A stretch of 64,000 nt of DNA, from assembly GCF_032062105.1 (NCBI RefSeq), contig NW_026929710.1, positions 62,001 through 126,000 on the forward strand, given 5' to 3'. Below are positions 18,291-61,250 of this stretch, in pieces. The notes under the pieces were generated by a model, which was not told the DNA's origin, ran no database searches, and was given only the letters and a program-made list of their open reading frames with translations. Every line of letters begins with the position of its first letter. Within the stretch, counting starts at the first letter, position 1. The DNA comes from Saccostrea cucullata. Lineage: Eukaryota. A program made the translations under genes and the position numbers.

Positions 18291-20996
18291 ATCCTTCCTT
18301 TAATCAGATTGCTTATAAAGAAACACAAATATTGCTAATGGAAAGTCCGGAAGATAATGAATTAGACCCTTCTCTTCAAAGACAACATAGATATTGTCAC
18401 TGGTAGATTGAAGATGGCCTGACTTAAGATAACGAATAGTATTCAATCTCAGAGATTCATTCAATATATACTATCGTTATTCTCGATCATGACATTGGAG
18501 CACATGGCGGATGTGACCGGCCAATAGGATAAGCTAACTACTTCATGGTAACTGATCCCACCTCAGAAGATTTAGATGTACCCTTTGCTCTGCTCCTAAT
18601 TTGTATTGCTTGAATGGACTTTTGAGCTTGAATGCTGTTCGTAAATATCTTATTATATTTCACCCTGCAATGCACTACCAGTTCCTGTACTCTACATGTA
18701 CCTAGGCACCAGATTTCACCCCCAGGAATTTCTATACTCTAGTCTATTTACAGCTGTGTCTTTTTTAAATACATCTTATTAATGTATCAAAGTGACTGCT
18801 ATTTTCATTTTATTCATTACGTGTTATGTCACGAGTAAGAGGAAAATTCCATAATTGAATATAGTTTTGAAAAAAATGCGTATTACTTTAAAGTTAATAC
18901 TATTAACACCAACAGTATGATTAAAAAATATTAAGCGCAAGACTGCCTAGACTTGATTTGAAATAAAGGGGTCGATTCAAAAGTAATGTCACATATTCAA
19001 TAAAATCTTTTGTAATTAAATGTAAATATCACACGCAAAATTTTAGACTGTTATAGCTGATATCAAATTTTATTTCTACCTCCACTTTTATTTGGTTATA
19101 TAAGATATATATTTTTAAATCATTCAGGTGTTCACAAGTTTTATCTATCGTCCCACGAAAAGAATGTTACATGTTGTTTTTGGAGCACTTTTTCAGAGTT
19201 TATCTGTATATCGTTTAAAATCTCACTATTGCTCGTTTCATTTTCTTGATTGTTAATTCTCTAAAAGAGTCAAAATTGTTAAAAAAAATTTTTAGAAAAA
19301 AATTAGCAATAAATGATGGTTATTTAAAATTGATTACACGAGAGTTGTGACATTACTTTGAGATGACCTTAGTATAATGTGCAGAATATCTTAAAATCAA
19401 TAAAATATGTGAATACCTGAGTAGGTGTTCGCACTATTGATATAATCAAAACTGAAATCAACTTGTAATTTTTCTCCTCTTGTAAAATATATCGGTAAAA
19501 TCCCACTGACCCAGTGATTTATTTGCGATATATGTATCTCATAGAAGGTGAAAATGACATATATGCTAAAAATTAATTACAATTAATTTTATATTTATAT
19601 TTTTTACTTTTATGCAAAATCGTCTATTAATTTTATTATTTAATGTATATATCTAAGACTAAGTTTTAATAGTGTTTAATACATGCAAGCCAGTTTTTGA
19701 GATAGTCCAATATTCGTTATTTTGCAAGAATGAGTTAATTGCGGGAAAAATCACGTAAGATTGTAACATTTTTTACCATATAGGTACATGTAACATAGAT
19801 AATTCTTAAAATCATCGGGACAAACTCAGAATAGGACTGCGCTGAATAAAAGTGATTGGAAATATTTTTTAATACCATGACAAAAGTTGTATACCGCAAA
19901 CTTGTGCACATGTGTAGATATTTTTCAAATATTATCCATTTCATTTGCTAATATTATTCTTTCCAAAAACTCAATATATTAGATACAGATTTTACTATTT
20001 ACGTATACTTTTCCCTTTACGGATTTAAGTGTTCGCTTGATCATGATAACTACGGTACCACGGAGTTGACCGGTCTACAGGGGATGTTTAATTCTCTATG
20101 GCACCTGACCCCATCTCTGATGATTGAGAGGTCTTTGTTTGCTTTGATCCTGATTTGTATAGTTTGATTGGACTTTTGAGTTTGAATTATTTATATAAGA
20201 ACATTAAATGGACATTGAGACAGTCTCGATCAGCTAAAAATTTTCAAATTTGGTTTTTTTTTTCTTTTATAAGTACAAATATTTAACCAAGGTCTATCTG
20301 GGACCTTATTCACAAAGCCTCCGTAATTTCCGCAGTCGCGGAGCGTTTACGGAAGGATTGCGGAAAGTTTACGGAAAGATTGCGGATGGTTTACGGCGTA
20401 TTCACGAAGCTTCCGTAAACTTTGCGAAATTTACGGAAAGTTTCCGCAAGTGAAACACGCTGAACGGGCACCTGCATTGTACAAAAAAAGAGTCATGAAC
20501 ATATTAAAACTTTAATAGTTTTGAGCGTGTTTTGTTTATTTTTTTAATCAAATATGTTGCATACTCCAAATTAAAGAATCAAAACTTAAATGAGTAATAT
20601 CCTTCTAAGAAAAAAAAGAATAAGAAAGTATTTTATCACGTGTTTATATTTTAATAGTGAACAAAAATAAAGCTTTCTAAAGGTTATTTATAACAATTAA
20701 AATCAAAATATTCATACTGTTGTGATTATTAGTTAACTAAATGCGTAGTCGGGGGGGGGGGTGTATTTTTTTTTTAATATACACTATTGAAACTGGTAAT
20801 CATTTAAATAATAAATGAATAACCAGCAATTTACAAATAATGAATAAATAATAAACGTTTTCGGCGTAACATATATATTTGTACATAGGTTTAGATCTAT
20901 AGATTCTCTTGATACCTCTTTTGTCCCGTGAACCTATTGTGACGTCATGACTAAGAAAATGACATCATTGAAATTCTGACAATTAACGCTGAAATT

Positions 20997-21893
20997 ATGG
21001 AAGATAGAAAAAAGAAGCCGCGTTTTAGTGAGAAAGAAATTGAAATATTAGTTCAAGGAGTTAAAGAACGTTCAGATGTCATCAACTCAAAATTCAGTGA
21101 CATGATCAGCAATACAAAGAAAAAGCAAGCGTGGGTGGAAATTTTGGAATCTGTAAATGCTGTCTCATTCTCAAAGAGAACTGTCGACGAAATTAAAAAG
21201 AAGTGGGATGATGTAAAGAGGGGTACAAAGAAGAGAGCTTCTGCCGTCCAGAAAGAACGTTGTAAAACGGGGAGTGGAAAATTGGAGATTATACCTTTAA
21301 GCCCAATGGAAGAAGATATTGTGTCTGTAATGGGAGAGGAGAGAATTTTTGGATTCAGCTCGTATGTAGACACCATGATTCCACCTGTAAGTAAGCCTAA
21401 TTTCATTCCGTCATTTTTGGTATTTACTTTAATCTAAAACAATATATTTGTTTCGAGACTTTCAACAATTTTGAACGATGTTCACATACTAAATTTCAAT
21501 ATCTGCATATACACACATAAAATCATTTTTACAGTTTTTAAAAATAATGACTGTTTTATAAACTTGTACATAGTCTTAAAAGTTATTAATGTCATTTTGA
21601 TTTTTTTGAGAGACAAGATATAAGGTGTGTATGTGTTGGGAGGGGGGGGGGGGTTACATGTCAATAAAGGAAAATATGTAATACTGGGGAAGCTTACAGG
21701 TTACATAACCTATATAGGTTACACGAATTGTCGCCTATAATCTCTTTATTAGTAGCAATTATAATAAGTCAGAATTTGAGTGTACATATCGGTGTTTTAA
21801 TTTTTTCTCTGCGTTTTCTAATATACAATTCTAGTAACTTCCCCAGTCATACAGAGGGCGTGATTTCTACATTGATCCTTGTTTCCGCTTTTT

Positions 21894-30609: not shown

Positions 30610-31820
30610 CGACCAAACTTGGTACAAAGCATCCTTGGGTGAAGGGGAATTTAAATTGTTAAAATGAAGGGACATATCTCCTCGCAAGGGGAGATAATCA
30701 AGAAAAGACAAAAATAGGGTTGGGTCATTAAAAAATCTTCTTCTCAAAAACCACATGGCCAGTAAAGCTGAAACTTATGTGAAAGCAGCCTGGGGTAGTG
30801 TAGATTCTAAATTGTTCAAATCATGACCCCCGGGGATAAGGCGGGGCCAAAATGGGGAATCAAAGTTTTACATAGAAATATAAAGGAAAAATCTTTGAAA
30901 ATCTTCTTCTCAAGAACCACTGGGCCAGAAAAGCTGAATCTTATGTGGAAGCATCCTTGGGTAGCGTAGATTCTAAATTGTTCAAATCATGACCCCCAGG
31001 GGTAGGGCGGGGCCACAATGGGGAATCAAAGTTTTACATAGAAATATAAAGGAAAAATCTTTAAAAATCTTCTTCTCAAGAACCACTGGGCCAGAAAAGC
31101 TGAATCTTATGTGGAAGCATCCTTGGGTAGTGTAGATTCTAAATTGTTCAAATCATGACACCCAGGGGTAGGGCGGGACCACAATGGGGAATCAATGTTT
31201 TACATAGAAATATGTAGGAAAAATCTTTGAAAATCTTCTTCTCAAGAACCACTAAGCCAGAGAAGCTGAAACTTATTTGGAAGCATCCTGGGGTAGTGTT
31301 GATTCTAAATTGTTCAAACCATGACCCCAGGGGGTTGGGCGGGGCCACAATGTGGAATCAGTCTTTTACATAGAAATATAAAGGAAAAATCTTTTAAAAT
31401 CTTCTTCTCAAGAACCACTGGGTCAAAAAAGCTGAAATGTATGTGGAAGCATTCTAGGGTAGTGTAGATTCTAAATTGTTCAAATCATGACCCCCAGGGG
31501 TAGGGCGGGGCCACAATGGGAAATCAAAGTTTTACACAGAAATATATAGGAAAAATCTTTGAAAATCTTCTTCTCAAGAACCACTGAGCCAGAGAAGCTG
31601 TAACTTATTTGGAAGCATCCTGGGATAGTGTAGATTCTAAATTGTTATAATCATGACCCCCGGGGGTTGGGCGGGACCACAATGTGGAATCAATGTTTTA
31701 CATAGAAATATATAGAAAAAATCTGAAAATCAAAGCAGAAACTTACATGGAAGCATACTGGGGTAGTGTAGATTTCAAATTGTTTAAATTATGATCAGTG
31801 GGGTAGGGTGGGGTCAAAGC

Positions 31821-31858
<38 letters not shown>

Positions 31859-33604
31859 AAATATGCATCTACTAACGGTTAATTTATGTACCTTCATTCT
31901 GAGATGATACTGTAAATACAATTATAGGGATAGTATGCCCTTAAAACTTCTGTAGAAACATGAGTTATAAATCTTCATAAAAAATGCAGATTATAAATAT
32001 TGATTTTATTATGAATTTCCCACCTATAAAATATTTATATATATAATTTTTTATGACATTATATAAGCAGAAAATATCAAGTTTATCATGTACCAAATTC
32101 CACTTAGACACCAAGCAAAGCTGTTTCTGGAGAGAGTCCACCACAAGAAGTGCAAGAGGTGCAGACGACTGCAGAGGGAGGCATCAGTGAAAAAGCACCA
32201 GAATCTGCTTTCTGTGCGAAGAAAATGAAAAGGCGGCCTTCTCAATATGAGGCTGATGAGAGGTGATTTTATTTACTAGTATTTGAATAAAACCTTGATT
32301 GCATTTTTCTGAGTAGCATCCCGTCCATTTTCGATAGCAATGAAGCAACGGCACTTGTTTCTTCAATATTTTTAGCCCATAGTATATTATAATTTTTTTA
32401 TACAATGGGTTAATTTAAAAAATATTACAGGAACAAGCGCCTGTGCGATGGAAGTCAATAACAGTGTAATTGATGCAAATCACCTATGGGATCTTACGTT
32501 TTAAGTTTTCGTAGTTAAAAAAATAAATGTCTTCTCCAGAAAGTAATCTCATGTGCCCTGAAAAAAAAATATTATAGTTCTTTTCAAAACCTTCATTTAT
32601 TTACAAAGTAAGTAAAATGCACTAGGCACAAGTTCCAAAGTTGCAATTTTTTTTTTTTTTTTAACGATTAAAACTTCAGACTCCTGTGTACAAATATAGA
32701 TTCTCTGAAATTGAAACTGGCATTAACAGTCTAGAACAGGATATATACATATATATATATATACATGTACATGTACAATCGGAAGTTTAGAGTTTTATTG
32801 TTTAACCTGCACTTAAATGTACAAAAAGTTACAGTAAGTCGGGTTTTATGAAACCAAGACTATGACAGTTGAATTTCTAAAATTGTGATAAATACATAGC
32901 TTTTCTAATCTTCCTTCGTGGATCTGTCAGAAAACTCGGAAAATCGCGGCAATCTCGGATATATTTTTCGAGCTCTCCAGACTGAAGGGCCCGAATTGAT
33001 GCTTTTGGTAAAAAAAAAAAAAAATAGTAACACAATGGAAATCTTTTAAATAGGTACTCATTGGCTCTTCTGACCTTTGATTTTTCACCTCGAAATTGAA
33101 AGCAAGGCAAAATACAGAATGTTGTTTTGAGTTAAAGAGTTATCGATTGTCGATGTGAAGCACACTCTTATAGATTTACTATTCTAAATTGTAACCCCCC
33201 CCCCCCTCCATGCAACAATTTGTCTTTTTTTTAATTCTAATGCAGCAAATTAAAATTTGGTTCAGATATCTTCTTCTGTGTTTTATTATGCTATAGCGCT
33301 ACCTCACCCATCTTTTTAAAAGATAAGCTTGTCTTGAGATAATTATACGTTAGTACGAGTTTTTGAGCATACTGAATGATTGTTCTTCGGTAGCTTGATA
33401 CTACAGAGAGAACTAATCAAGATTCAGAGGGAATGGCTCGATGTGGAGAAAGAGAGACTCGGCATCGAGAGGGAGAGGCTTCAGATAGAGCGTCGACGCT
33501 TGGAGATGGATGAGCGGGCCAGGGGATTTTCCGCCACATGTAATAATTCAGAACGCAATGCATCGGAATTTCAACTCTTCAACGGTGCATTTATGCAAAT
33601 ATGA
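29558..33604 (+). CDS. Harbinger Myb/SANT-like protein (copy 2)
   Basis: Exons 29558-29947, 32108-32262 and 33394-33604, with the same translation as copy 1. Confidence 0.88.
30461..31857 (+). mobile_element. Second copy of the Helentron/satellite element
   Basis: Same structure at the same position in Harbinger copy 2. Confidence 0.85.
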
Positions 33605-34210
33605 GGAATGTTAATGTGCATTTGATAAATCTTTTAATTCATATATCCACTGTTTTCTTTGATTTGCATGTACGTACAAAACATAAAGTTCCATTCATTA
33701 TGAACAGCATATATGTAAGATGTAACTGGTAAATACAATGTATTTTTCCAGAAAAAAGAAATTAAACAAATGACAAATGAGTTCTAGACATCGTAGTTAT
33801 ATCTCTGTTTTCTTTTTGATCTACAAAGAAATGCAATAAAATTAAATAATACATACACTTGCTCCTATTTTAATCACTTTCTGCAACTTCTTTACATCTA
33901 TTATCTCCTTCATGTTTATTTCACAATAAAAATAAAACTTTGGTGACTAAAATTCACCATTTTTTCACAGAATAAGAAGAGATCTCTGTAAACTTTCACC
34001 TAATTTCTAAAAAAAAAAAGGTTCCGGTGTTTAATTAAGTTTGAAAAAGTGGGGGGTGCTCCTGAAATTTACATTCCGATATCTGTATATATGCCGAGCT
34101 TCTAAATATTGAAAACATTACCTATTACGCAAAGCTACCAATTCAAATACCCGGCCAGATCAAATGTCATCGCACAAATGAAATCAGTTTAATTTGTATT
34201 TTTTAAGTAC

Positions 34211-36990
34211 CTAAAACCTGTCTCTTATCAACATTTGTCTAATCTCTTGTCCTGAGTGATCTTGTACATCGCCTGGCATGTCATTATCATCATCATTCTG
34301 CTCATCATCGTCCTGCTGGAACTCCACGGGGAGACCTCGATCTTCACAGATGTTGTGCAGCACTGCAGTAGCTGTGATTACTTGTACAGCTGTAGCTAGG
34401 CATATGGTTAACGGTCCACCTGTGTTACAGTTTTTTACACATGTTATACCGATTTGTCTTTACGTGAAGTCTAAAACTCTATTTCTGTCCTCATATGATG
34501 TCACAGATTATTCTATTTATTAAACACTGCTTATGGTAGATAAATTTATCAATATGTAGATATACGGACCGAAAACTGTCCATATTTTTAAAAATTCTTT
34601 TCTATTTTCTAAAATTTATATTCATAAATTCATCCAATTTTTTTTCTTTTTTGGTGATAATTTACATGATTTTTTTTCGACCATGTTAATCATATGAGAT
34701 AATATTTTTATCTTTCATGGCATCAGGCAGATAATTCCAAATGCAATAAAACATTCTGTATATTTTTCTTAAGTAAGGCCACACCAATAAAATTTTTTGT
34801 TCGTCGGACCCGCGCGCTCGTATTTAAACGAAACAAGACAAATAATATTATATAATTTAAAATTTCCCGCACCATTGGAATTTTGTGCTATTTTCTGTTC
34901 TATTTCCGCTCTATTTATCGTATTTTTCATCTGCTTACTCTGTAAATCAGAAAAAGATATAATTGTCCGCTCAAATTTCTTCACGCTCCGCCTAAAAAAT
35001 TTATCTACAAAAAGTAATAATATTATTATTTAACCGCTAGCCCGCTCGTACTTTCTTTCATCAAATGTCCGACGAACAAGAAATTAAATTGGTGTGGCCT
35101 ACATTAAACTCAGCTTGAAAATTGTTAAGTGCGTTTGTCATAACATTGTGTTGAGGGGACAGACAGCCAACAAGTCGTCAATTTAGAATACATGTAGGTA
35201 CGTGTATGCTGGGAAGTTCAAAGATGTGACATGTGTCATGTTGTGAATTTTGAATTTACCGGGTGGCAGTAAATACAAAATTTACAACATGACAACTTGT
35301 AAATTTTGTATTTACTGACACCCGGTAAATTCAAAATTTACAACATGACACATGCATTAATATTTTATTTAGAAAATACCTCGAGAACAAAGATTATGTT
35401 ATTCACGTAATACTATTGATGATGAATTTTATTTCTTTCTACAGTGTAGCTTGAATATACAAGCAAGGGAAAAACTTTTTTAAAAATATGTTAGATAATT
35501 GTTCCTCATTCTACATCAAATCACCTACACAGAAACTTGAATATATACTAAGTCCAAAACTTGAAGTTATAACGGCTGTTTGCACTTTTATAAAACTATC
35601 ACTAGAATTGAGAAATAAAAGGTCCACATCGGTGCAACATTTAGGAATGAATTTCTATATGTATATATACCAGTATGCGTAAATACAGCAAAATCAAGGG
35701 GGGGGCAAATGTGCCCCCTCTCTTCAAATGCGGATTCGGTAGGGTGTGAGGGTGAGATATAGAGGGAGATAAAAGGTTAGCTATGAGTCTCACGTTTTGC
35801 TTTACGTTGGATATCCAATTTAACAATATCTTGATTCAAAGAGAAAGAGAAAAGCAATGATTAGACATATTGATATGGAAACATCCTCCAGGTCACGTAG
35901 ACTCAAATTTGTTCAAATCACAATGGAAATTAGAAATGGATTGCTTTTTCATATTCATAATTATGTTGATTACAATATACATGTATATAAAATTTTCTTT
36001 ACACTTAGAATATAATTTTATTCACGCCAGACAAGTGACTTTCCATATATTGTGTATAAAACGTGTTGTTATGACTATTATATAACCAAATTTTATGAGG
36101 AAAAACAAGCCTTTTAGAAAATCTCATGCATGCTTGTTATAAACTATAGTATACGAACCAAATTTGTGAATGCAAAGCCACCGACTCTTCCATCGTCCGA
36201 ACGTATCTTCAATTCTCTGTCTAGCTCTTTTGTGCGCAACATTGAATGCCCTGTCAGCTGGTGTACTTGGAGCCCGAAGAGGAGTGATTAAATATTGTCT
36301 CAACGGGTAGGCCTGGTCGCCCAAAAGATGGCCAACATAGGGCTGATTTTTAAACCACTCTTTCAGCGAACAATTATTCCAAACATATGCGTCATGTGTG
36401 CTACCAGGCCATTGAACAACAATGTTTGTCAGTTTTTTCTTATGATCACAAACTCCCTGAACGTTAATTGCGTGGTACCCTTTTCTACACACATACGCGT
36501 CTTCCCTTTCCGATGGTGGTTTAATTTGGATAAGCGTTCCATCAACGCATCCCAATACATTTGGAATATTAAATTCGCACGAAAAACCCTGTTTGATTAC
36601 AAGCTGTTCTGCTATTCTCTCAGGAAACTTGATGAATTCCCTTGCCCTATTTGATAAAGCTTTAGATGTTTTGTAGACTATTCTTGAAACAGTTGGCTGG
36701 CTTACCCCTGCAATGTCGGCGACTACCTGTTGTAGGGATCCAGTGGCAAAGTACCTCAGGGCCGTCAAAACTTGTAGAGAAGCCGGTATGCTCTTGGACC
36801 TCATAGTGGGTGGCTCCAAGTCCTCAGCCAACAAATCTATAATATCTAAAATACAATATCTTGGCATGCGGAATCTTACGATTAAGTCTTGATCGTCATA
36901 CATATCCAAAGGATGTGTCCGGTCCCTGAAGACCCTTTCTCTTCTTAAATTTCTCTTGTTTAATCTTTGGAATATGACTTGGAACGCCAT
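34211..36990 (-). CDS. HARBI1-like DDE transposase (copy 2)
   Basis: Exons 36990-36159 and 34419-34211; DDE motifs intact. Confidence 0.93.
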
Positions 36991-38556
36991 TTCGTAGTTT
37001 CTTGAATAACGGGTATGACGTAAAATATTACGTAACAATCGTTTTATACGTAACTTAAAAAACTGAGTACTCTTTATATGCAAAAAAAAAAAAAGATTAT
37101 AATAAATAAAAGTAGATCGGGAAGAAAGTTTAATCAATTGTATAATTTAATTATTATTTATGTGTTTCCATTTAAATGTTAAATTATTTATTCTTAAGTA
37201 TAATTAATTTATTTTTATTTCATAAATATGGGCTTTGCCCTTTCCGCAACGTTTACGGATGGTCATGACGTCCCGTAATGTACCGCCGATTTTACGGAAC
37301 GTTTACGCAAAGTTTGCGGGTGCGGTACTTACGGAGACGTCGTGAATAAGAATTTTTCCCCTGCGGGTCAATTCCGCAAAGTCTACGGGTCCGGTAAGTT
37401 TACGGAGGCTTTGTGAATAAGGTCCCTGATGTTCATCAAAAATTAACGTCAATTGTCGTAGATGGAAGACTGATATAGAGCTCCAAACCTTTGTTTTGTA
37501 AACAAGGTAAGTGTCATGTTTTTGTTTACATAGATTAATATACTACTTTGTGTTCGCTCAAAGCAGATAATTTCAATAAAGAAATTTAATTTAAAATTTA
37601 TTTAAAATACGATTCTACAGTTTCTAATTATTTGCTGAATTTCATTTGTTATAAATATTATATTAACAAATGATGTTCAATTTTTGCAGTTCATTTGGAT
37701 TTTATTTCATTTTAAATATGATATTAACAAATGATGTTCAACTTTTTGCAAATCAATAGATAGTGCCTTAGTTAGAAATTGTAAACCTTAACATTGGTTT
37801 TAAAAATCAGATGAAACTGTGTCTATTTTGCAGATACCACAATTTCTTAAATATATAACACTACAAATGAGGGACTTTTCTTAATGGTAGAAAATATTTC
37901 GTGACGAGACACATTTTTCTAAATGACTAATCCGATGTATTTTATTTTTGTTCTTTTTTAATTACCAAATTGAAAACAAAAAGATTATTTATCTTGATAA
38001 TTTCTTTTTTATTATTTGTTTATTTATGCTCTGGTGATTTGAGAAAAGGTTTTGCCTATTTAAAATGAATAAGTCCCCTTAGTATACGAAAATCAATTGT
38101 AAAAGTACAAATAGTTTGAAAACAAAATATCAACATTAAAAATCTTGAAATGCTCAGTATAATAATAATAATTCAAACTATTTCCTAAATGTGTTTTATG
38201 AAAATAGAAACTGCATGTGTGTCAGAAAAAGTATGCCAAAACATTGTTTTTAGTTTTCTGTTAAATTTAGATATGATTGATATGATTTTTTCTCTCGCTT
38301 GTTATTGCAGATATATTGAAGACAGATAAACATGTTAGAGTATGGGACATTGAATATTATATTTGTATATTTTGTTGACAGTAAGTTTGTCAACAACACA
38401 AAAAAATCAATCAAACAATGAAAAAGAGAAAAATGGAGAAAAAATAAATAAATAAGAAGAGGAGGGAAAATGAATTTTTTTTAATATTAAAAAATATTTT
38501 AACTTTAGAAATAATTTGATTTATTGAAAAAGATGAAGTAAGATATTAAAGGCTTT

Positions 38557-45069: not shown

Positions 45070-48000
45070 AAGAGAGAGAGGAGGGCGAGAAGGGATAGTA
45101 AGAAAAAAATTACAAAAACAGATTCTTCCAGGGTTTCCAGGCTTCGTCAAAAGTCAACTGATTATTGTTTTTATATGCAATATACTTGTTTATTTCATAC
45201 ATATATTTGATGGAGGATATCAGTCCATTCAAGGAGAGGTATTTACCACTACATCTCATTCTGTAGATAAAATATTTAATCTGAAGAGCAATGAGATATT
45301 TTATTTTGTCTAATTTTGCAAAAGATCCCAATATGAATTCTTTTTTCAAATATACAACATTAATATGAATCTTTCTAAAGCAATAACTATCAAAACTATT
45401 CAATAAGTCTTGTACTACTTCACATTCCCAGAAGATGTGTTCAATAGTTTCTGTCTCAGTTTCACAAAAAGAACACTTGTATGAATCTATTTTCTTAATT
45501 TTATGTAAAAAGGAATTTGTTGCTAATATTTTATGATTAATGCGGAACTGAAACCACTGAAGTTTTGTATCTTTTGTGAGCTTAAAAGGAAATGAAAAAA
45601 CTTTTTCCCATTCACTATCATTCAAGTTAAAAATTCTATTCCAGCTAGTCTGACCTAAAGGCTTGATATCATTGCTTTTCAAAATTTCATATAAATTTCT
45701 TGATTTCTTCGCATTTAATAAACGGAATGTTTTTTGTGTAATATATGGCATATAAACAGTTGGCATAGAAATAATATTTTTGATTTTCATCCATTCTCTA
45801 ATAGCAGCTATAAGTCCATTGTACTCAAGAAAGTTTGTATGGATTCCATATTTCAATTTAAACATATTTACATCCATAAAGGAACCGTCCTCTCTTAAGA
45901 GATCATTTACGAAAAATATATTATTTTCAAACCATTTCTTATAAAAAATTGGGTTTTTTTTTACCATTCAGAATATTTTTATTAAAAAATAGTGGTTCCA
46001 TGGAGGCACTTGCTTCTAGTTCTGGTAATTTAAAAAAAAAATAGCCAGGCTTCTAAAACTTTTTTCCAAAACATATTTTTTACATCTTTAATTTTCTTGA
46101 GAATGTATTCTTCTCCACAAAAAACTGTTTTTTTTAAATCTAAAGTTAGATATGAATATTTACCTTGCAGTATGACATTTTTCATCCATACAAGTTTCAG
46201 AGACATAATAAACTCTTTAATACTAATCATCTTGAAACCGCCATCTTTAAGATCTTTAATACAAACTCCTTTTTTTAGTCTAAAATCTTTAATTTTCTTG
46301 AGAATGTATTCTTCTCCACAAAAAACTGTTTTTTTTAAATCTAAAGTTAGATATGAATATTTACCTTGCAGTATGACATTTTTCAATACAAGTTTCAGAG
46401 ACATAATAAACTCTTTAATACTAATCATCTTGAAACCGCCATCTTTAAGATCTTTAATACAAACTCCTTTTTTTAGTCTAAAAGCATTACTCCCCATTAC
46501 AAAAGAATAAAAGGTGTTTTCTAAATCTTTTATATATAAATCAGTGGGATTTGGAAGGGAGGCAAAAATATGATTCAATGTTGGCAATAAAAGTGTTTTC
46601 AAAACTGTTAATCGTCCTAGTGGTGTGAGATTCCTATGTTTCCAATGTCTTATCATTTTCTTTATGTTTTCTAACTTTGAACTGAGATTCCTCGAAAGTA
46701 TCTTCTGCAAATCTATATCAAATTCAATACCAAGTAACCTAAAGTTTTTCTTTCCCCACTCAAGAGATTGATTTTTACATAAAACCTCATCACTACCTTT
46801 TTTGCTACCTATCCATATTACTTGTGTTTTATCGTAATTTATATGTAAGCCGGACATTTTTGCAAAATCTCTAAGGGTACCTAAACTTGATTGTAAAGAT
46901 TTCTCACTGCCATCTAATATAAGAGAAGTGTCATCAGCGAGCATCGAGATTTTCTTTTCCCCATCAATAAAATATATACCTTTGATGTCTTTGTTGTTTC
47001 TTATCTTAATAGCAAGGATTTCAGCACATATCAAGAATAAGTATGGGGATAGTGGGTCTCCCTGTCGACACCCTCGATGCAAAGAGAATGTTTCAGATAA
47101 ATTTCCTCCCTGATTTACTGCTGATGTAATGTTTGAATAAAATAAACTGACCCATTTCCTCATAGACTTTCCAAAATTAAAGAATTTAAGTGATTTTTGA
47201 ATAAAAGCCCAAGAGACAGAATCAAATGCTTTTTCAAAGTCAACAAGAAGAAGAAGACCTGGTATTTTTTCTTCTTCTGTGTATTGCATAATGTCATAGA
47301 TTAGTCTAATGTTTTCAGCTATATGCCTGCCCTGTATAAAGCCTGTTTGATCAGGATGTATAATTTTATCTAGAAACCTTCTAATTCTATTTGCTATTGA
47401 ACCAGATGCAATTTTATAAACTGTGTTTAAAAGAGAGATAGGTCTCCAATTTTTTAACAAGTGTTTAGGTTTGTCACCCTTCGGTAAGCAGGTAATGATT
47501 CCATGTCTCTGAGTTACACTTAAGATATCATGATCATATGCATAATTAATTGATCGGACAACAAAAATGCCTATAAATTTCCAAAAGACCTTAAAAAATT
47601 CTGAGGTAAAGCCATCTGAGCCAGGTGATTTATTTGATTTCATCCTAAAAAGTGTTTCCCCTGCCTCCTTCATTGTAATTTGACCTTCTAATGACCTTGA
47701 CTCTTCATTGGAAAGCTTTTCAATATCTGAAAAATTCATTTCCTCCTGAAGGTTAACATTTTCAATGACATCATCTACATTTCTATATAAATTTTCATAA
47801 TATTGTTTGGTTGTTTTTAAGATATCTGACTGATTATAAACTGTCTCTCCATTTTCTAATTTAATTTTTGGAATAATTTTACTTATGAAATTTCTTGACT
47901 CGAGATTACAGAAATATTTTGTCGGTTTCTCCCCTTCTTCTATCCATCTTGCCCTTGACCTTATATATACACCAGCCATTTTTTCTTTTCTAATATCTTC

Positions 48001-49592
48001 CAACTCTTTCTTTTTTTCTTCAAGAGTTTCATTATTGCTTGTAGACCCCTGTGCCAATTCCTCCAGGGAACTTATTTCTTTTATAAGTTTTTCTTCTTTA
48101 AAAATTCTGGATTTTTTTTTAAAAGACGAATATGAAATACATTTCCCTCTAATTTCCATAAGAAGTGTTTCTAAAAATAACTGGTCATTGACTAAAAATA
48201 CAATATTTTCATCTTCAATAGATTGCAAGTTATCTATATTGTATACTGGAACTGCATACTGCTCTTTAACCCTTTGTATCACCCCCTTAATTGAGTTTAA
48301 AAATTCTTCATCATATAAAAGAGAATTATTAAATTTCCATAATCCTTTGCCTTTCTTAAAATCATTGAACTTTAAACATAAAGTAATAATCGAGTGGTCG
48401 GACCTATAGCTAGGTTCTATAGAACTTGTTGTAACACTTGACAGTAAGTTCTCCGATACAAGAAAAAAATCTAATCTACTTTGCTTAATGGGACTTTTTT
48501 TTCTCCAAGTATATCTCAAAGCATCTGGATTATTTTGTCTATAAATATCAACTAAGTTGTTATCTTCCATAAGCTCTATAACCCTCTGTCTTGCATTAGG
48601 GTTATTTATATGTTTATAATTATAGTAGTCTAATTCAGGATTTAAAACAAGGTTAAAGTCACCACATAATATAACATTTTCACAATTAAAATCATTAATG
48701 TACTCATGTAATCTTTCATAAAAATCAGGGTTATCATTGTTTGGTCCATATATACAACATAAGAGAAACCTTTTTTCATCAGCAGTAAAATCTAAAAGAA
48801 GAAAATTACCATCCACGTCTCCTTTTTCCTTAGACATTTTAACCTCAAAATTATTATTGAATAGAATTGCTATACCTCTTGCATTTGATGAAAAAGAACT
48901 AAAGTAACAGTCAAAACCCCACATGCTTCTGATTTCATTTTCTATTTCAGTTGTAAAATGAGTGTCCTGAAGGCAGTAAATATTATAATTCATTCCTCTA
49001 AGATAATTAAAAACATCTCTTCGTTTGCTGATATCCCCCAATCCTTGACAATTAGCTGATAATATTTTCAAAGACATGATGGATAATTAAGAAATTTACC
49101 TCTGACGGAACCTGGAGCTTCTGTACGAATCTTGAATAAACACAGAATTGAGTTGTAAAGAGAAAGATAGAGTAGAAAGGAAAGAAGTAACAGAACAGGA
49201 AAAAGTTTGTAAAAAGCATTCAAACAGTTCAAAAATTGGCTAGCTCGAAAATTGTCAATGGGCCATATTCGCGTACAGGCAAAAAAGTCACAACCGGAAT
49301 TTAATATTTTAAAGTAATAGCAAAAACTTCGACGTCAATGGACCTCAAAGTTCCGGAATAATCACATGGATGGAAATTAAAATTCCGGGTTGTCTAAATA
49401 ACACTTTACACTATTTGATTTTTTCATCAAGATTGTCCAACAAGTCAAACTTCATTCGTTTATCGTTCACCAGTCCATAAACACTTCCATTAAAGTACCA
49501 CGCATTGTCTATTTTTGGGTGGTCTTTTAATCGGTTTATGAGGATCCCATTCAGTCTCGTCACATCGTCTGTCAGCCAGATCTTCCCATCTG
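44914..49592 (-). mobile_element. 5'-truncated L1/Tx1-clade LINE, antisense in an intron of the NLR-like gene
   Basis: Poly(A) tail at 44914-44939 and a 13-bp TSD TATTTTCCTATTC (44901-44913, 49593-49605). An ORF1 C-terminal remnant lies at 49411-49590, followed by ORF2 from 49077. The 3' UTR contains (TC)n. Confidence 0.95.
45110..49077 (-). pseudogene. LINE ORF2 (APE endonuclease - RT - C-terminal zinc knuckle), frameshifted near 45960-46040
   Basis: Endonuclease motifs NCQGL, LQDTH, GDFN, RLDFF and SDH. RT motifs WRPISLLN, DFEKAFDSV, QGDPLSP and LADD. CSFC..ETIEHIFWEC lies in the downstream frame. Confidence 0.92.
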
Positions 49593-52050
49593 TATTTTCC
49601 TATTCAGTTGAATGGAATGCCTACTTATATTTCAAAACATCTACGTATTACACCTTTAATGGGCTAATATGTTTTTGATCAACAAATATTAATTGATTCG
49701 AAAATACATATTTATACTAAAAGATGGATTCTTTCATTCGTTAATATATATTGTTTGTCCAGAATACTTATATTCCCCAAAGTTTTCACTTCTATAAAAA
49801 ATAAAAAAAGAGGGAGCTGGGTTGAAATTATTTTTTTTTCAATTTTATGTCGACGAGTGACAACTCCATGTTCAAACATTTATCAATATACAATATCTTA
49901 AACTTTGTGTTTGCAGAAAAGAAGAAGTCACATCAGTTTGATTTCAAATTAAAAATATCTATGTGAAGAAGAATCAAAATTTTACCACGATATTTATATA
50001 TTCAACGTGAAAGTATCCATTTTAATATTTAATTTTTTCACAGTGAATTATCAAATATACACGAAAAAGAATGAATATATAGCAACCACAAGTCAAATTT
50101 TAAATTTAGTATATACCACTTGTGTTATATATCAAATCAAAGCTTATAAAAAATTGTTTAAGAAAAATATAATTTTGAAATTTTCTGGTCAAGCATTGTT
50201 ACTAAAAATAGATTGCGAAATGTAAAGGTATTGTTCTAGTGTGTGACCACTTTTCTGAAGAAAATACCTAGTAGCATTGAGGTCAAAACTTAAGGTAATG
50301 TATTCAAAATATAATCTCTCTCTTCTTATTTCCTTTGCCCAGAATCCGAGTTATTAAAGTTCAATTGCATCAAACACCTAGATTGACTTGAATCATTAGA
50401 TAGTGAGAGTCGTCTTCCAGTATAATTAATTGGGTTACATGGGACACGCAACGTTACGTTGACGTTATGCTTATAAAAAGACGTCAACAAATCCAATCAA
50501 TAAAAATGATCACAAATTAATTTAAAACAAGATTTGTTTGTAAAACACTATACACCCGGCAACGACAAAATAAAAAAAAACTTTTTGGCACATATGTCAC
50601 AGTCAAGGTCACAAGGCAATTGACCTTGGTGTCATTTGAGAGAACATGATTAGTAAAATATGGATACCAAAAATGAAGTATCTGTTTCTTGCGCTTCAAA
50701 AGTTATTGCAAAGGTTAACTAAAAACGAAAAAAACTATTTTTAACATACAGGTCACAGTCAAGGTCACTGGGTTTTTGTCTTTAATTACTAGACTGTATT
50801 TATCCTTTTGTAAAATTAATCTTTGTGTTGGGCACAATGCTTGCAATTACAAAATTCCGTGGCGGATCAAAGGGGGTCGTATCCGCCCCCTAAAATTGTC
50901 AAAGTTAGCGTAAATCATAGTTTCGTCGAGAAAATATAAAAATGTCTACTCGGTTAACCTCAATTTTTCCTACAAAATCTCTAGAATTCAGCTTAAACCA
51001 GATTACCCCTGCCGATTATGGGCGCCCCCTCTAACTTTAATTCCTGGATCCGCGCATGGGATTTATAGAGAGTTGGAGTGATAAATACTTATCATATAAG
51101 GAATCTAAAAATCATGAATTTTTTATATAAATTATCAAAAACAAAAAATTTGTATTTTAAATTCTTCATACGAATACATTTAATATGATGCGGAGAATTG
51201 GTAATGAACTGGTATTAACTGGGAGCGTGATGTAAATCTTAAATTATTCCGATATGTAAGTGGAGACTAATAATCTGAATAACTAAAAAAAACTAGAAGA
51301 ATATAAGTCATAGATATGACCGCAGCATATGATAAATTCTGAAGAAAAGGAGGGGGAATTTAATTTAAAATTCCTTTGAACATTTAGTTAAACATGTAGA
51401 TCATTCCTAATGTGTGTTAAAGGTTGTCCGAATTTTTTGTGAATTATTAAAGCTCTCTCTCTCTCTCTCTCTGATGTAAAACATTTGATTTGCCCCGCTT
51501 TTGAGAAAGCGATCGAGGTTTCTTCAAATCTTATTCGTCTGTCTGTTTGTCAGTCAGACTGTAAATCTGTTTGTATGTAACAAAAATTCAACCTTGGTCA
51601 TCTCTTTAGAATTGGAACAGAGAAGAGATAGAATTGTATATTATTCATGTGTTTAAACTGTGACAAGACCTTTCTAAATACACTACAAGAAACCTATATA
51701 TTGTCGCAAGCGTCAAAAATCGGCCGCAAACCCAATTAATTGTTCCTTTGATATAGTAATAAGAAACTGAAATTTGCATGATCTGTTTTTAAAATTCCTT
51801 ACATTTATCTATTAAAATATCCTCCTGACATAAAACACGTGCATGCGACATTGCCGATTTTCCTTGAACCTTGACGTTTGACATACTTTTCAAAAATGCA
51901 ATTTTCCCCTTATAACTTCTGATTGAGATTTATATAATGCTTTCATATTTAACATGTTCATTGATGTGATTTCTGACCCCCTTGATCTGGACCTGTATGT
52001 TTGACCTAATTTTCAAAAAATCAACTTAAGTTATAACATTTGGATGACAT

Positions 52051-52497
52051 ATTATAGGGCGTTCATATTTGGAACAATATGCCATAAATAATGTAATATT
52101 ACCCACATAGAGACAAACAGCCGGTAAAACAAATTAAAGATTTTGTCTATACACGTACATGTATAGTACATCGGTACATGCAGCACTTTCATCCCCATGT
52201 ATGTTCATTAAATTAGATGTCAATGTCTAAGACATTTGATATACACTTTAAATTTTTTTTCATCACGTAAATATTATAGGGCGTTCATATTTGGAACAAT
52301 ATGCCATAAATAATGTAATATTACCCACATAGAGACAAACAGCCGGTAAAACAAATTAAAGATTTTGTCTTTACACGTACATGTTTTATAGTACATCGGT
52401 ACATGCAGCACTTTCATCCCCATGTATGTTCATTAAATTAGATGTCAATGTCTAAGACATTTGATATACACTTTAAATTATTTTTCATCACGTAAAT
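52051..52497. repeat. Tandem duplication of about 222 bp
   Basis: ATTATAGGGCGTTCATATTTGG...CATCACGTAAAT occurs at 52051 and 52273, nearly identical. Confidence 0.9.
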
Positions 52498-55400
52498 GAA
52501 ATTTTTCATGAGTGAATTCTTCAATACTGTTTTAATAACCAAAAAGTACAATCTGAAAAGAGTCAGAAATGAAAATTTTAAAATATCAGAAATGAAAACT
52601 AAAACATGTCGGCCATGAAAAGTTGAAATATCGAAAAATTTCCAATCGGCAATCCTCGGCTGACTCCGCTAGGTTCCATTCAAACCTCCGAGGTGCGATA
52701 TATGAGCCGCCCGAGATGCTCCAAGTGAAAAATACCAGAAATGAAATGCAGCTGGGGGACCACAATTTTAATTTCTTTTTTTAAATTTTAGACCTCTTTG
52801 ATGCATCAGTAATATTATTTTGCCTATTTGATTATTACAATTCATCCATCTACCTATCCATATGTTCATATTCTACATAGGCATCGAAACCGGGGGGTGG
52901 GGGTGGTAAGGGGGGGGGTATAGGGGTCTCAACTTCCCCCCCCTTTTTTTCAAAGATAGATATTTTTTAGGCATTGAAAATTGTGGTTTACCTTTTTTGT
53001 TGGTTTAGCCGCCCCCCCCCCCCCCCACCTTCAATCAGCCACCCCACTTTCAATTTGCGACGTTTATGCCCTAACATGCATGTAATTTATTGTTAGTGTT
53101 GTAATCAAAAATACTTAGAAATTTTAGAAATAGTATTTACCAGTCAAATATAATCTAAGTAAAATAATAAAATCTACACAACGTATTAGATTAAATGCAT
53201 ATGATCTATATCCATGGAAAACGAATCTAGAATATTTGTAGGCCTTATTGTCTCTTGAAAAAAATGAGCACCTGGCAAATACTATTTTTACATTTGTGTT
53301 GTATATAAAAATAATAAAAAACATATATATTAAGTTTCAATAAAATGCCAATGTAAGGATATAAACTGTATATCAATGGGAAAAAAAATCATATGAGACA
53401 AGCTGAATGAACATTATAAAAGAAGATATCCCACGTACCAAAAGTACAAAATTTTCTGTGACATGAATTTTGTAAACACGTTCTTCTGGAATTTAGCATA
53501 TCATACAATAAACTTATTTATTCATGAACTCAATTGAATTTATTTACATTTCTTTTAATAAAAAAAATCAGAAGGCTATTGTATTTTTTTCTTTACACTA
53601 GATACTTATTTTCTTACATATTTATTTTTATTTCTTACTCATGATTTTAATTTTTTATTGCTTCAAAATTATAACGTCAATTTTACTTTATAGAAGTTTT
53701 CTTTTTCAGTCCTAATCATCGTTCCTTGTTTTATATTTTTGACATGTTTAATTAGTATTTTTCTTAGATAAAAAATTATTATATTTAAAATTACCCCTTC
53801 GGGTACCCCATTAAAAAGACATCGAGAGTTATCCCCCTCTGAATATTTCTATAGTTACAGTAAACAAACTACATTACAAAACAATTTCCAGGAATCGTGG
53901 AGGGCGTGAAAATGACGTCAAATATCATTCGCGCTGGCTATATGTTGTGTTGTTATTTGAAAGATCGCTTCTTAGCGCCGATGCAAGGAAAATAAATCTA
54001 CACAGTTTCTTAAAGAGGAGAATATTCTCTTTCGATCTATTATTGTAACACATATGCAACCGGTTCGTCAAACGAGTGAAAAAACTCTCCGAAAAATGCT
54101 TACATTTGACTTTCCATAATCATAGCAATATACATATCTGGCTAGTCGTGTTTGGTATCATTATATTCAGAATAATCAACTGTATCTACCATTGTACAAA
54201 GAAATCCGAATATATCCTCTGTTGTCCTATAAACAGCGAAATAAAAGAATGCGGTTTTTATGACGCGCTAAAATCGTGACGTTTTATTTCAGAACATGCT
54301 TGAACATTTTATAGGAATTAAAACAAAAAACAGCGATAAAAAATTATAAAATTATAATTTTTAGATTGTTTAACAATTTATCTTTACAGTTCAATTAATT
54401 TTTTTGAAGTTAGAGACACGAAAGTATGTTAAATACGCTTTTTAAAACTGGTAGTTTTGTATACTGTCACATAGCGCAACGTAAAATGACTTGTGGTTGC
54501 TAGAATATATTTAAACATATTAAACCTTCTGAAAATGTGTAAATATTTCTTTTTCGTAACTTTTATTTAGAACGTCAAACTGAGGAGATAAAAGTGTGGG
54601 AGGAAGATGATGAAGTGTTCTGTGAGACTCGTGCCTTTAATGAGTTTGAAGAGATGATGAATATTCATAATATAGTCACCATTATAGGAGGACCAGGTAC
54701 AGGAAAAACAGCAAAGGCACGCCATCTAGCGATCAAATACAAAAGCGAGGGATGGGAGATCATCCCGGTCATTTGTTTAGAGGATATCAAAAACTTTGGA
54801 CATTTCAGTGTTAAACAGCTTTTTTTGTATGATGATCCAGCTGGTGTGTTTGGGTTTGATAGGTCAAGATACAATTCCTTAGTAGATTTTACAAAAATCA
54901 TTAAGTCCTTATCAGAAAAATAAGCAAAATTCATTTTCACTTGCAGAAAAGCAGTGTTTAATGAAGGTAGAAAATTAGACCTGTATATTTTTCAAAATAC
55001 GATTGATATCGAGAGCAAAGGAATGTCCCTTACAACAAATGATATGAAGAAAATGCTCACAATTCATTGTGAGAAAAGCAGAGTTGAAAAGTCTGTTTAT
55101 CAATGCTTGTCATTTAAATCAGGATTTTTGATGTTTCCTTTGCTTTGCAAACTGTTTTCGAAAGAAGTCCAATATCAAAAAGATGGAGGACGATTTTTTG
55201 AAATGCCTAAGCAGTGTTTGGTTGCAGAGTTTGAGAAAATGAAGCTTCTAAATAAGACTCACTACGCTTCGTTAGCTCTTTGTGTGTTATCTCAGAACAA
55301 GCTTAACATACATGATTGGAAAGATACTGAAACATTAAATCTTATGGTCAAACAATTTAGGATAGAGGGATCCTTGTCTGAATTGCAAGTATGCGATGCT

Positions 55401-57399
55401 TTAAACGAAATGAATGGGACATATGTCATCAAAATTGATGAAATGTACTCTTTTGTTCATGACGCCATATTTGAAGTAATGGCATATATGTACGGGAGAG
55501 AATTTCCCGAAATGGTCATATCTAAGATGAATAGTGGATATATTTCTAGATGTGTGAGGCTGAAACCCGATGCACAATCAAATCTTAATTCATTTGTTAT
55601 CATTCCAGAACAAAAATACCCTGTTCTTGCTAAAAGACTTTATGATGACATCAAGGATAAGCAATTTTATGATGTCTTCCAAAATAAATGTTTGAAAGAG
55701 CAATCTTTTTTACATGTCTTCATCAAATATCTGAATACAAAGTCAAACGACGATTTATATGAAAATTTTCTAAATAATATTGATTATGTCCCTCATCTCA
55801 TCGCCACAGAATTTATTGATAAAATTGAGGAAGGACGAAAATACATTTTTGAAAGACTAATTGTCGGTGAAACATATGCACAGGTGATGACGGATTCCTT
55901 TATGGCTGAAGATGAAGAAATGCCTGAAAATATAACAACATTTAAAACGAAATATCAGATCCGGGCCCTTAACTGGGTAGTTGCTTACGGTCACGATGTT
56001 CTTTTTGAATTTCTTATGGATAGGATCTCTCTTAATGAGATAGCTAGGAAGGAAATGTCTTTGTTTTCCTCATATGAACAATCTCATCTTCTTGTTTTGA
56101 GTACTTTTAGTGCAGATTCACAAATTACAAAAAAACTAATTGGATACTTAGATTCCAACTGTATTGACCAAAGTCCTAGTGGTAAATTTGACCCTTTAAA
56201 TATCCACATGTGTTATACACCTCTTACCGCCGCATGCGTAGGAGACAATTCTGAAACAATAGATGTCTTGCTTGATGCTGGGGCAGATATCAATAAACGT
56301 GATGACATGCCTGAGGGAGATACGCCGCTTACTTATGTTGCTAAACATGGAAATATAAAGATTGTTGAACATTTGATCATGAGGAATGCTAATATCGACA
56401 AGGTTAATGGTTGCAATAAATCACCCTTATATTGCGCGTCTTATTTTGGTCATGTCAGCACAGTTCGATACCTGGTTGCAAACAAGGCTAACGTTAATAT
56501 ATGTGATGCTTACAATCAGTCTCCCTTATTTGTTGCTGCCGAAAAGGGTTTCATCGAAATAGTAGACATCCTAGTGCAAAATGGAGCAGATGTTACTATT
56601 TGCGAAAATAATGAAAATAAAACAGCATTATATCAGTCTATCAGTAAAAATCACTTAGACATTTCAATGTTGCTTCTAAAATCGAGTGTTTATGACACAT
56701 TACTGAATTCAAATACCATTGATTTGATATTAAGAGAAGGAGTAGATCTCAACGTTCTTGACAATGAGGGTAGAACAATGCTACAATGGGCTATAAAGAA
56801 AAAAGATATTGTAATTTGTAAGAACTTAATTGAACATGGAGCCAAAGTGGAAAGTCTCTTGGAAAATGAAATACATTCCCTTTGGTCACACGTCTTAATG
56901 TCTCACAATTTTGATGACTTGAAGTTTGTCGTGAAAAAGTTTGGTCAGCCCATGCGCTCTGATATTCCTTGGAAAGAATTTCATTTATCGAAAGCTTCAG
57001 CTGAAAATAATTTTGAAGTAGTTAGCGTTCTGCTAAACCTTAATTTCAGTTCTCCTTACGAAGGTCAGATATTGCAGGAACTCTTTACAATTGCAATACA
57101 CAGAGGAAACATAGAATTTGTGAAAAAAGCTTTGGCAAGCCAGGTAGAAATTGTTAACAAATGCGAACCATCACTTTCCTTATTTGGTCCAAAGAATACA
57201 ACACCATTGAATATAGCCATACAACATGGACACACTGATATTGTTAAATATTTGGTGGAAAATGGATCATATGTAAATATGCCCGATCAAACAAACAAAC
57301 CATCATTTTACAGAACATTTGAGTGTAGAGAAAATGAAACTGTTGAAAAAATGGCGCAAAATAAAGTCAACATTAGTTTTCCTAAGGGATTTGAGGACG

Positions 57400-60300: not shown

Positions 60301-61250
60301 TATGCATGGCATCAGAAAACGGTCATTACATAATTGTTGAGTATCTAGTCGAACATAGGTTAATGGTTTTTCTTTGAAAAAACACCTTTTGCAACAAAAA
60401 ACGGTCAAACAAAACATTTCATGGGGCAGAGGTTAATGTTTCTGATTCTTGGAAATGGACGCCCTTATGCATGGCATCAGAAAACGGTCACGCCAAAATT
60501 GTTGTGTATCTAGTAGAACATGGGGCAGAGGTTAATGTTTCTGATTCTGAGGATGGGACGCCCTTATGCATGGCATCAGAAAACGGTCACGCCAAAATTG
60601 TGAAATATCTAGTCGAACATGGGGCAGAGGTTAATTGTTCTGGTTCTTTGAAAAGAACGCCCTTATTCATGGCATCAGAAAACGGTCACAACAAAATTGT
60701 TGAATATCTTATCGAACATGGGGCAAAGGTTAATGTTTGTGATTCTGATTAAGAGACGCCCTTATTTAAGGCATCAGAAAACGGACACACTGAAATTGTT
60801 GAATATCTAGTAGAGCATGAGACGGATTTGAAAAATTCTAAAGATTTGAAAAGAACCCCCTTATTTAAGGCATCAGAACAAGATCACAACGAAGTTGTTA
60901 GATATCTAGTTGGACATGGGGCAGACGTGAATATTTCTGATAATTAGGAAATGACGCCCTTAAGTAATGCATCAGAAATTGGACATCTCAAAATTGTTGA
61001 ATATCTGTCAAACACGGGGCAGAGGTAAATGTTTTTGATTCTTTGAAGAAGATGCCTTTATATAAGGCATAAGAAAACGGACGACCCAAATTTCTGAATA
61101 TCTAGTCGACCATGGGGCAGACGTGAATATTTCTGATTTATTGAGAAAGAAACCTTTAAGTAATGCATCCAAAAATGGGCACACCGAAAATGTTGAATAT
61201 CTTGTCGAACACGGGGCAGACGTTTATGTTTTTGATTTTTTGAAAACAGA
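57400..61250 (+). repeat. Tandem array of 99-bp ankyrin-coding units (roughly 35-40)
   Basis: Consensus TPLxxASENGHxKIVEYLVEHGAEVN, with high nucleotide identity between units. Confidence 0.95.

What the first reader, a model, noticed from the sequence alone, without database searches (positions are those of the whole stretch)
20298..37428. Head-to-tail dimer of an intact Harbinger transposon with a 1-nt junction and one shared TSD
Seen in sequence: CTG|TIR-8562 bp-TIR|G|TIR-8562 bp-TIR|CTG. The junction (28863) holds a single G, not a third CTG. Both copies have open transposase and Myb genes and the same nested insertions. They differ by scattered substitutions, for example synonymous CTT/CTG at 25798/34358 and TAAATAACC vs TCAAGAACC in the satellite. 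Inference: breakpoints exactly at the TIRs point to a transposase-made structure, such as an end-joined circle or dimer intermediate or re-insertion at the element's own end. The outer TIRs could mobilise a 17-kb unit.
Basis: partly seen in the sequence, partly recalled or inferred. Interest (0 to 1): 0.7.

Follow-up and report, generated by a model that had tools for sequence, protein, structure and literature searches.

The report
Tandem dimer of a Harbinger transposon
Two nearly identical copies of an intact 8.6-kb cut-and-paste transposon sit head to tail at one site in this animal genome assembly, joined tip to tip by a single base; they are sister copies that likely doubled on the spot, a known kind of structure seen here in the Harbinger family.

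Summary
The anatomy is confirmed: CTG, copy A (20301-28862), one G, copy B (28864-37425), CTG. Each copy has an open DDE transposase and Myb gene, and the family's target duplication is CWG. A and B differ by 20 substitutions and 8 homopolymer indels. They are sisters: 14 differences against 49-57 to the two nearest other copies, plus a 1.4-kb Helentron-like insert found nowhere else in the family. No other exact tip-to-tip junction exists in the assembly, so nothing shows that the 17-kb unit ever moved. Most likely the element re-inserted into its own CTG and repair trimmed the middle CTG to G (about 0.45). Direct joining of cut ends across chromatids, or through a circle, fits almost as well (about 0.38); an assembly artefact is about 0.12. 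No reads of this individual were available, so the junction is unverified. Head-to-tail DNA transposon dimers with eroded junctions are published (Drosophila hobo), and this scan has noted similar dimers in other genomes. A new member of a known kind; moderate interest.

The parts
20298..20300 (+). Left target site duplication, CTG
   Evidence: Sequence; family TSD is CWG at 17 of 20 non-redundant outer ends
20301..28862 (+). Copy A of the Harbinger element, 8562 bp
20301..20326 (+). Left TIR of A (26 bp exact), followed by subterminal 11-bp repeats (20338-20396)
20997..25040 (+). Myb/SANT-like gene of A; predicted exons 20997-21386, 23546-23700, 24830-25040; 251 aa
   Evidence: Pfam Myb_DNA-bind_5 E 2.1e-22 on exon 1; GT-AG splice model and open frame; splicing predicted, not observed
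21898..23293 (.). Helentron-like non-autonomous insert (about 1396 bp, ends blurred by a T run) with a GTCC/GTCT microsatellite and six 166-bp satellite units, in Myb intron 1; present only in A and B
   Evidence: layout agrees with the HINE description in PMC7492417, not aligned to it
25650..28429 (-). Transposase gene of A; predicted exons 28429-27598 and 25858-25650; 346 aa; acidic triad D150, D225, E261 read from recalled motifs
   Evidence: Pfam DDE_Tnp_4 E 6.9e-30 on exon 1; open frame
28837..28862 (-). Right TIR of A
28863..28863 (+). One-base junction G, centre of a perfect 26+1+26 bp palindrome
   Evidence: predicted DNA hairpin of -30.7 kcal/mol for 28827-28899
28864..37425 (+). Copy B of the Harbinger element, 8562 bp
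28864..28889 (+). Left TIR of B
29558..33604 (+). Myb/SANT-like gene of B; predicted protein identical to that of A
   Evidence: end coordinate from the offsets
30460..31855 (.). Helentron-like insert of B
   Evidence: coordinates from the offsets
34211..36990 (-). Transposase gene of B; differs from A at one residue (323)
   Evidence: low coordinate from the offsets
37400..37425 (-). Right TIR of B
37426..37428 (+). Right target site duplication, CTG
   Evidence: homologous empty sites hold exactly three bases here

Best explanation
This is a head-to-tail pair of sister copies of an intact PIF/Harbinger transposon at one CTG site, likely made when the transposase re-inserted a copy of the same lineage into the element's own target duplication, after which repair likely trimmed the middle CTG to G. 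Shown: the anatomy, the CWG target rule of the family, the sister relation of A and B, and the uniqueness of the junction in the assembly. Inferred: the donor was the same locus on a sister chromatid or homologue, or a sibling copy not in this assembly; the first product was CTG-A-CTG-B-CTG; a re-cut of the junction by the transposase, or breakage at the centre of the palindrome, was then rejoined with loss of CT. Predicted consequence, by analogy with mPing: A's right end now faces GGG and would be a poor substrate, B is flanked by CCG and CTG (middle base changed only) and would likely still excise, and the outer pair could in principle excise both copies. The trimmed junction would thus help the dimer persist.
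For: Breakpoints at TIR tips and outer CTG pair. CWG at 17 of 20 non-redundant outer ends, and matching pairs on 3 of 3 other copies with exact TIRs at both ends. Two homologous loci lack the element and keep a three-base site between the same flanks. A-B 14 differences in 7129 shared columns against 49-57 to C17866 and C14016; 19 of 24 sites shared by A and B are derived against outgroups; A+B clade 100/98 on the last 1.45 kb; Helentron-element joint found 2 times in the genome, both in this dimer. Double insertion and frequent junction deletions are published for Drosophila DNA transposons, with TSD deletions in 24 of 36 hobo dimers (10.1101/158386, passages).
Against: The hallmark of double insertion, a whole TSD in the junction, is missing, so a second event must be assumed. 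mPing data say that TSD-derived overhangs are usually repaired precisely (PMC4561436, passages), so a trimmed junction is the minority outcome. The sister relation narrows the donor to one lineage, which end-joining across chromatids explains without further assumption. No read of this individual was seen crossing the junction. Two tight clusters of transversions (22515-22518; B equivalents of 24137-24161) could be consensus errors.
Confidence: 0.45

Rival explanations
1. Direct end-joining across chromatids or homologues. The transposase cut the right end on one chromatid and the left end on the other, and end-joining fused the two element-bearing arms with loss of two bases. One chromatid gained the dimer and the other was left with an empty site.
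For: One event explains the same site, the head-to-tail order, the intact outer CTGs, the sister relation and the missing TSD. Under the 5' overhang model of PMC4561436 the two cut ends would be complementary and easy to join. The G equals the base next to the left TIR.
Against: The same model predicts a CTG joint, not G. No second junction of this kind in the assembly. I found no paper showing this route for Harbinger elements. The sequence cannot tell it from re-insertion, since both pass through the same broken intermediate.
Confidence: 0.31
2. An excised circle with a right-G-left joint recombined with the resident copy by a single homologous crossover, giving CTG-A-G-B-CTG.
For: Gives exactly this layout. 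Circles of cut-and-paste elements with odd joints are known for Sleeping Beauty (PMC6943129, passages).
Against: Private changes of A (element positions 1290, 2215-2218, 5424, 5497) and B (1183 to 8465) are interspersed, with no switch point; this test has no power if circle and resident were identical. Needs two rare steps.
Confidence: 0.07
3. Assembly or consensus artefact: two alleles placed in tandem, or a true CTG junction shortened by base-calling at a hairpin.
For: No reads of the source animal were checked. No allelic contig of these flanks above 89% near the site was found, so a second allele could be collapsed here. A and B differ in 8 homopolymers and two transversion clusters. The junction is a strong hairpin.
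Against: The right end and left end share no direct overlap for an assembler to join on, and no flank is duplicated. The assembly keeps similar haplotype-like versions on separate contigs (97.7% over 12.5 kb for C15667 and C5678). 13 of 14 A/B differences in shared columns are private to A or B, not alleles of other copies. Outside the two clusters 9 of 14 changes are transitions, like the 17 of 24 on the older branch (Fisher p 0.73).
Confidence: 0.12
4. A transposase-independent tandem duplication (replication slip or break repair) that happened to end at the element's borders.
For: A and B are sisters at one locus.
Against: Both breakpoints fall within one base of the TIR tips of an 8.6-kb unit, with no microhomology: the base after the right TIR is C and the base before the G is T. 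A slip on the CTG repeat would have kept CTG.
Confidence: 0.05

Closest known systems
Head-to-tail DNA transposon dimers of Drosophila (P, hobo; McGurk and Barbash, 10.1101/158386; passages read)
   Same: Two full elements head to tail at one site; junction TSD often deleted (24 of 36 hobo dimers).
   Different: Different superfamily; here both inner TIRs are complete to the last base and one base of the TSD remains; the two copies are shown to be sisters.
PIF/Harbinger superfamily (definition from PMC9179366, passages; mPing mechanism from PMC4561436, passages)
   Same: DDE transposase plus Myb/SANT gene, 26-bp TIRs, 3-bp TSD.
   Different: TSD is CWG rather than the TWA of mPing; my five-term search found no paper on a tandem Harbinger dimer, which is a weak negative.
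Alternative transposition of maize Ac (PMC3744419; abstract only)
   Same: Transposase acting on ends of different copies makes tandem duplications and reciprocal deletions.
   Different: There host DNA is duplicated and the new joint has an 8-bp TSD; here only the element is doubled.
Bacterial tandem IS dimers with 1-3 base spacers such as (IS30)2 and (IS21)2 (recalled, not read)
   Same: Abutted right and left ends with a very short spacer.
   Different: Those junctions are hyperactive intermediates; nothing here shows that the joint is active, and it occurs once.
Sleeping Beauty circles (PMC6943129; passages)
   Same: End-to-end joints made by host repair after excision.
   Different: Extrachromosomal dead ends; this joint is in an assembled chromosome between two copies.

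Membership tests
PIF/Harbinger transposon | DDE transposase of the Harbinger type | tested here: met
   Pfam DDE_Tnp_4 E 6.9e-30, above cut-off; 346-aa predicted frame open in A and B
PIF/Harbinger transposon | Second gene with a Myb/SANT-like domain | tested here: met
   Pfam Myb_DNA-bind_5 E 2.1e-22; 251-aa predicted frame
PIF/Harbinger transposon | TIRs of about 25-50 bp | tested here: met
   26-bp exact TIR at all four ends
PIF/Harbinger transposon | 3-bp target site duplication | tested here: met
   CWG at 17 of 20 non-redundant outer ends; matching pairs on 3 of 3 other copies with exact TIRs. Sequence alone cannot exclude reading the constant C and G as part of the TIR.
PIF/Harbinger transposon | Transposition activity needing both proteins | not testable with these tools
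   Needs a cell assay. One RNA run from another animal showed no depth over the main transposase exon bins, which says nothing about this individual.
Dimer by double insertion (McGurk and Barbash) | Head-to-tail full elements inside one outer TSD pair | tested here: met
Dimer by double insertion (McGurk and Barbash) | Whole TSD kept in the junction | tested here: not met
   One G instead of CTG. The structure is filed as a tandem dimer with an eroded junction; the double-insertion route is inferred, not shown.
Dimer by double insertion (McGurk and Barbash) | Two separate insertion events | tested here: inconclusive
   A and B are sisters; this fits a local hop but also end-joining
Ac-type alternative transposition duplication | Host DNA duplicated and a full TSD at the new joint | tested here: not met
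   No flank duplicated, no TSD at the joint
IS30/IS21-type active dimer (recalled) | Abutted ends with a 1-3 base spacer | tested here: met
   One-base spacer
IS30/IS21-type active dimer (recalled) | Junction is a preferred substrate that spreads | tested here: inconclusive
   Junction found once in the assembly; activity not testable

The most novel reading that the evidence does not exclude
The G is not erosion but a direct record of how animal CWG-type Harbinger transposases cut: the right end's 3' tip is joined one base outside the left TIR of a sister copy, as in bacterial IS dimers, so Harbinger elements have an end-to-end dimer pathway that raises copy number without a new target site and does not use the three-base overhang proposed for mPing.
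Probability: 0.1. Interest if true: 0.65.

Novelty: new member of a known kind. Interest (0 to 1): 0.32.

Why it matters
Cut-and-paste elements need a route to gain copies, and tandem dimers are the proposed seed of transposon-derived satellites. This is a clean example in a Harbinger family with open genes, so the junction gives a concrete test of where Harbinger transposases cut: the mPing model predicts CWG joints, and this one has G. It also predicts unequal mobility of the two halves. As one unverified junction in one assembly, it changes nothing by itself.

Tried and rejected
Public runs: 24 listed, best share of words 0.52. Five different runs were laid in two calls (X1, X2, X6, X21; X1, X2, X3, X6). 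None of the 24 pieces listed bridges 28863 (78 more were not shown), and loose ends at the TIR tips run into other flanks. These runs carry other alleles (X2 lacks the Helentron insert, X1 has the older base at 28007), so they are other animals and say nothing for or against the junction. Other dimers: an exact and a looser TIR-spacer-TIR pattern each found only this junction; more degenerate ends would be missed. A third copy with the Helentron insert: none, 2 matches, both in the dimer. Two unrelated donors: rejected for the copies present in the assembly. Polishing with reads of other copies as the source of A/B differences: rejected for 13 of 14 sites; the four-change cluster in B matches none of 6 other copies. 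Single-crossover mosaic: no switch point. Rate asymmetry, 3 private sites in A against 10 in B: not significant (p 0.09; 0.34 with B's cluster as one event). A normal two-ended insertion into the GGG or CCC at the TIR tips: would leave extra bases that are not there. My first Myb splice model was one base off and was corrected. The exact empty-site string was not searched as a pattern; the flank searches served instead. The paper on the reconstructed zebrafish Harbinger was not held under the id that I recalled and was not read. No supplements were read; those of the bioRxiv dimer paper may hold junction sequences that bear on how unusual a one-base spacer is. No age in years is given, since no mutation rate was available.

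Full report
Observation. The window holds CTG (20298-20300), copy A (20301-28862), a single G (28863), copy B (28864-37425) and CTG (37426-37428). Both copies are 8562 bp. They differ at 38 of 8571 alignment columns: 20 substitutions (0.23%) and 8 indels, all in homopolymer runs. The junction is a perfect 26+1+26 bp palindrome, with a predicted DNA hairpin of -30.7 kcal/mol.

What the element is. Exon 1 of the minus-strand gene matches Pfam DDE_Tnp_4 (E 6.9e-30) and exon 1 of the plus-strand gene matches Myb_DNA-bind_5 (E 2.1e-22). With GT-AG introns the predicted proteins are 346 and 251 aa, open in both copies; the Myb proteins are identical and the transposases differ at one residue. Splicing is predicted, not observed. 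These features, with 26-bp TIRs and a 3-bp TSD, meet the PIF/Harbinger definition in PMC9179366 (passages). The genome is 1.17 Gb in 23869 contigs. The nested 166-bp satellite with a GTCC microsatellite has the layout described for oyster Helentron-type elements (PMC7492417, passages), so the host is likely a bivalve; this is inference from layout, not an alignment.

Family and target rule. The exact TIR occurs 24 times in the assembly, 4 of them in the dimer. I dropped the 2 junction ends and 2 ends with repeated flanks; 17 of the remaining 20 are preceded by CWG, the dimer's two outer ends included. The three other copies with exact TIRs at both ends have matching duplications, CTG/CTG twice and CAG/CAG once. 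Two homologous loci, 85-89% identical to the immediate flanks, lack the element and have exactly three bases (CCA) between the same left and right flanks. So the outer CTG pair is one target duplication, and the junction departs from the family rule.

The two copies are sisters. In 7129 columns shared by A, B and the two nearest copies, A and B differ at 14 sites, against 49-57 for A or B to the others. A and B share 24 sites against those two; 19 are derived by outgroup vote, 1 is ancestral, 4 are unresolved. A six-row tree of the last 1.45 kb gives A+B 100/98 support. A 1.4-kb Helentron-like insert is in A and B only: its joint with the element occurs twice in the genome, both here. Of the 14 A/B differences, 3 are private to A, 10 to B and 1 is shared with another copy. 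So the pair did not come from two unrelated donors among the copies present. It split late in the family's history, either as a dimer that has aged or as alleles or siblings that were joined later; these cannot be told apart here. A weak synonymous excess on the shared branch (5 of 6 or 7) keeps a lost sibling donor possible.

Is it real? Not verified. The public runs are from other animals and none of the listed pieces crosses the junction. Indirect arguments favour a real structure: there is no direct overlap between the right and left ends on which to mis-join, no flank is duplicated, this assembly keeps haplotype-like versions on separate contigs, and the scattered A/B changes have an ordinary transition share (9 of 14 outside two clusters, against 17 of 24 on the older branch). 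Against: two transversion clusters and the homopolymer indels may be consensus errors, no close allele of the flanks was found, and a hairpin is a hard place to call. I put an artefact at about 0.12.

How it likely formed. Both inner breakpoints are at TIR tips with no microhomology, which points to the transposase (about 0.83 in all). PMC4561436 (passages) proposes that mPing ends are cut with three-base 5' overhangs from the TSD. Under that model a re-cut CTG junction and a joint between a right end and a left end from different chromatids pass through the same broken intermediate, and G is an imprecise repair of it. The sequence therefore cannot separate re-insertion followed by trimming (0.45) from direct end-joining (0.31) or circle recombination (0.07). 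I commit to re-insertion because it is the documented route: P-element dimers carry a TSD, and 24 of 36 hobo dimers have lost it (10.1101/158386, passages). The odds are judgement, not computation.

What it would do. By the mPing results, changes at the first or third TSD base cut transposition hard and changes at the middle base little. A's right end now faces GGG, B lies between CCG and CTG, and the outer pair is intact. So A alone would be stuck, B would likely still excise, and a 17.1-kb unit is possible in principle. Nothing shows that it has moved: two pattern searches find this junction once. Transfer of plant data to an animal CWG element is untested.

Comparison and novelty. It is a member of PIF/Harbinger and works like the Drosophila tandem dimers, but fails their hallmark of a whole TSD in the junction. 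It is not an Ac-type alternative transposition duplication (PMC3744419, abstract only). Searches for a Harbinger dimer in print found none, a weak negative since the library is partial and matches words only. This scan's notes list other head-to-tail dimers in other genomes, both with the TSD kept (not checked by me); none for Harbinger in this genome. Verdict: observation confirmed in the assembly, new member of a known kind, interest 0.32. The bolder reading, that the G records a dedicated end-to-end pathway, is not excluded (0.1) and can be tested by sequencing circle joints.

Noticed in passing
L028 (G000:C14016:307389-314553): A 7165-bp single copy with CTG on both sides, both predicted genes open and no Helentron insert; the plainest intact member of the family in this assembly.
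   Followed up: partly
L026 (G000:C17866:51424-59973): An 8550-bp copy with its own 1350-bp insert near element position 585 and a 30-bp insert with stops in the transposase; its length is close to 8562 only by coincidence.
   Followed up: partly
L031, L033, L036 (C5840, C11473, C15576): One divergent family member with the same flank lies on three contigs and carries an independent satellite-bearing insert in the opposite orientation. Together with the three versions of the window's own flanks (C11847, C15667, C5678) this suggests segmental duplicates or more than two haplotypes in the assembly.
   Followed up: partly
window 27598-28429 and 23597: On the branch shared by A and B, 5 coding changes are synonymous and 1 or 2 are not (p about 0.01-0.03 under an assumed 0.3 synonymous share), a weak hint that this lineage was still transposing before it doubled.
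   Followed up: partly
window 26208-26546 and 26669-26793: Two small inverted-repeat elements in the transposase intron (41-bp and 58-bp arms), shared with the other full copies.
   Followed up: no
window 45110-49086, minus strand: A LINE-type retrotransposon (endonuclease, reverse transcriptase, zf-RVT) in two frames, with a tandem duplication of about 200 bp at 46084-46489.
   Followed up: no
window 54924-61250: A long ankyrin-repeat gene region with a 99-bp repeat unit, split over several frames.
   Followed up: no
window 52049-52497: A tandem duplication of about 222 bp, 97.8% identical.
   Followed up: no
L004, L014, L022: Three exact left TIRs whose flanks are not CWG (GAG, GTA, AAA); the flanks do not match the element apart from a simple repeat, so they are not further dimers.
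   Followed up: partly
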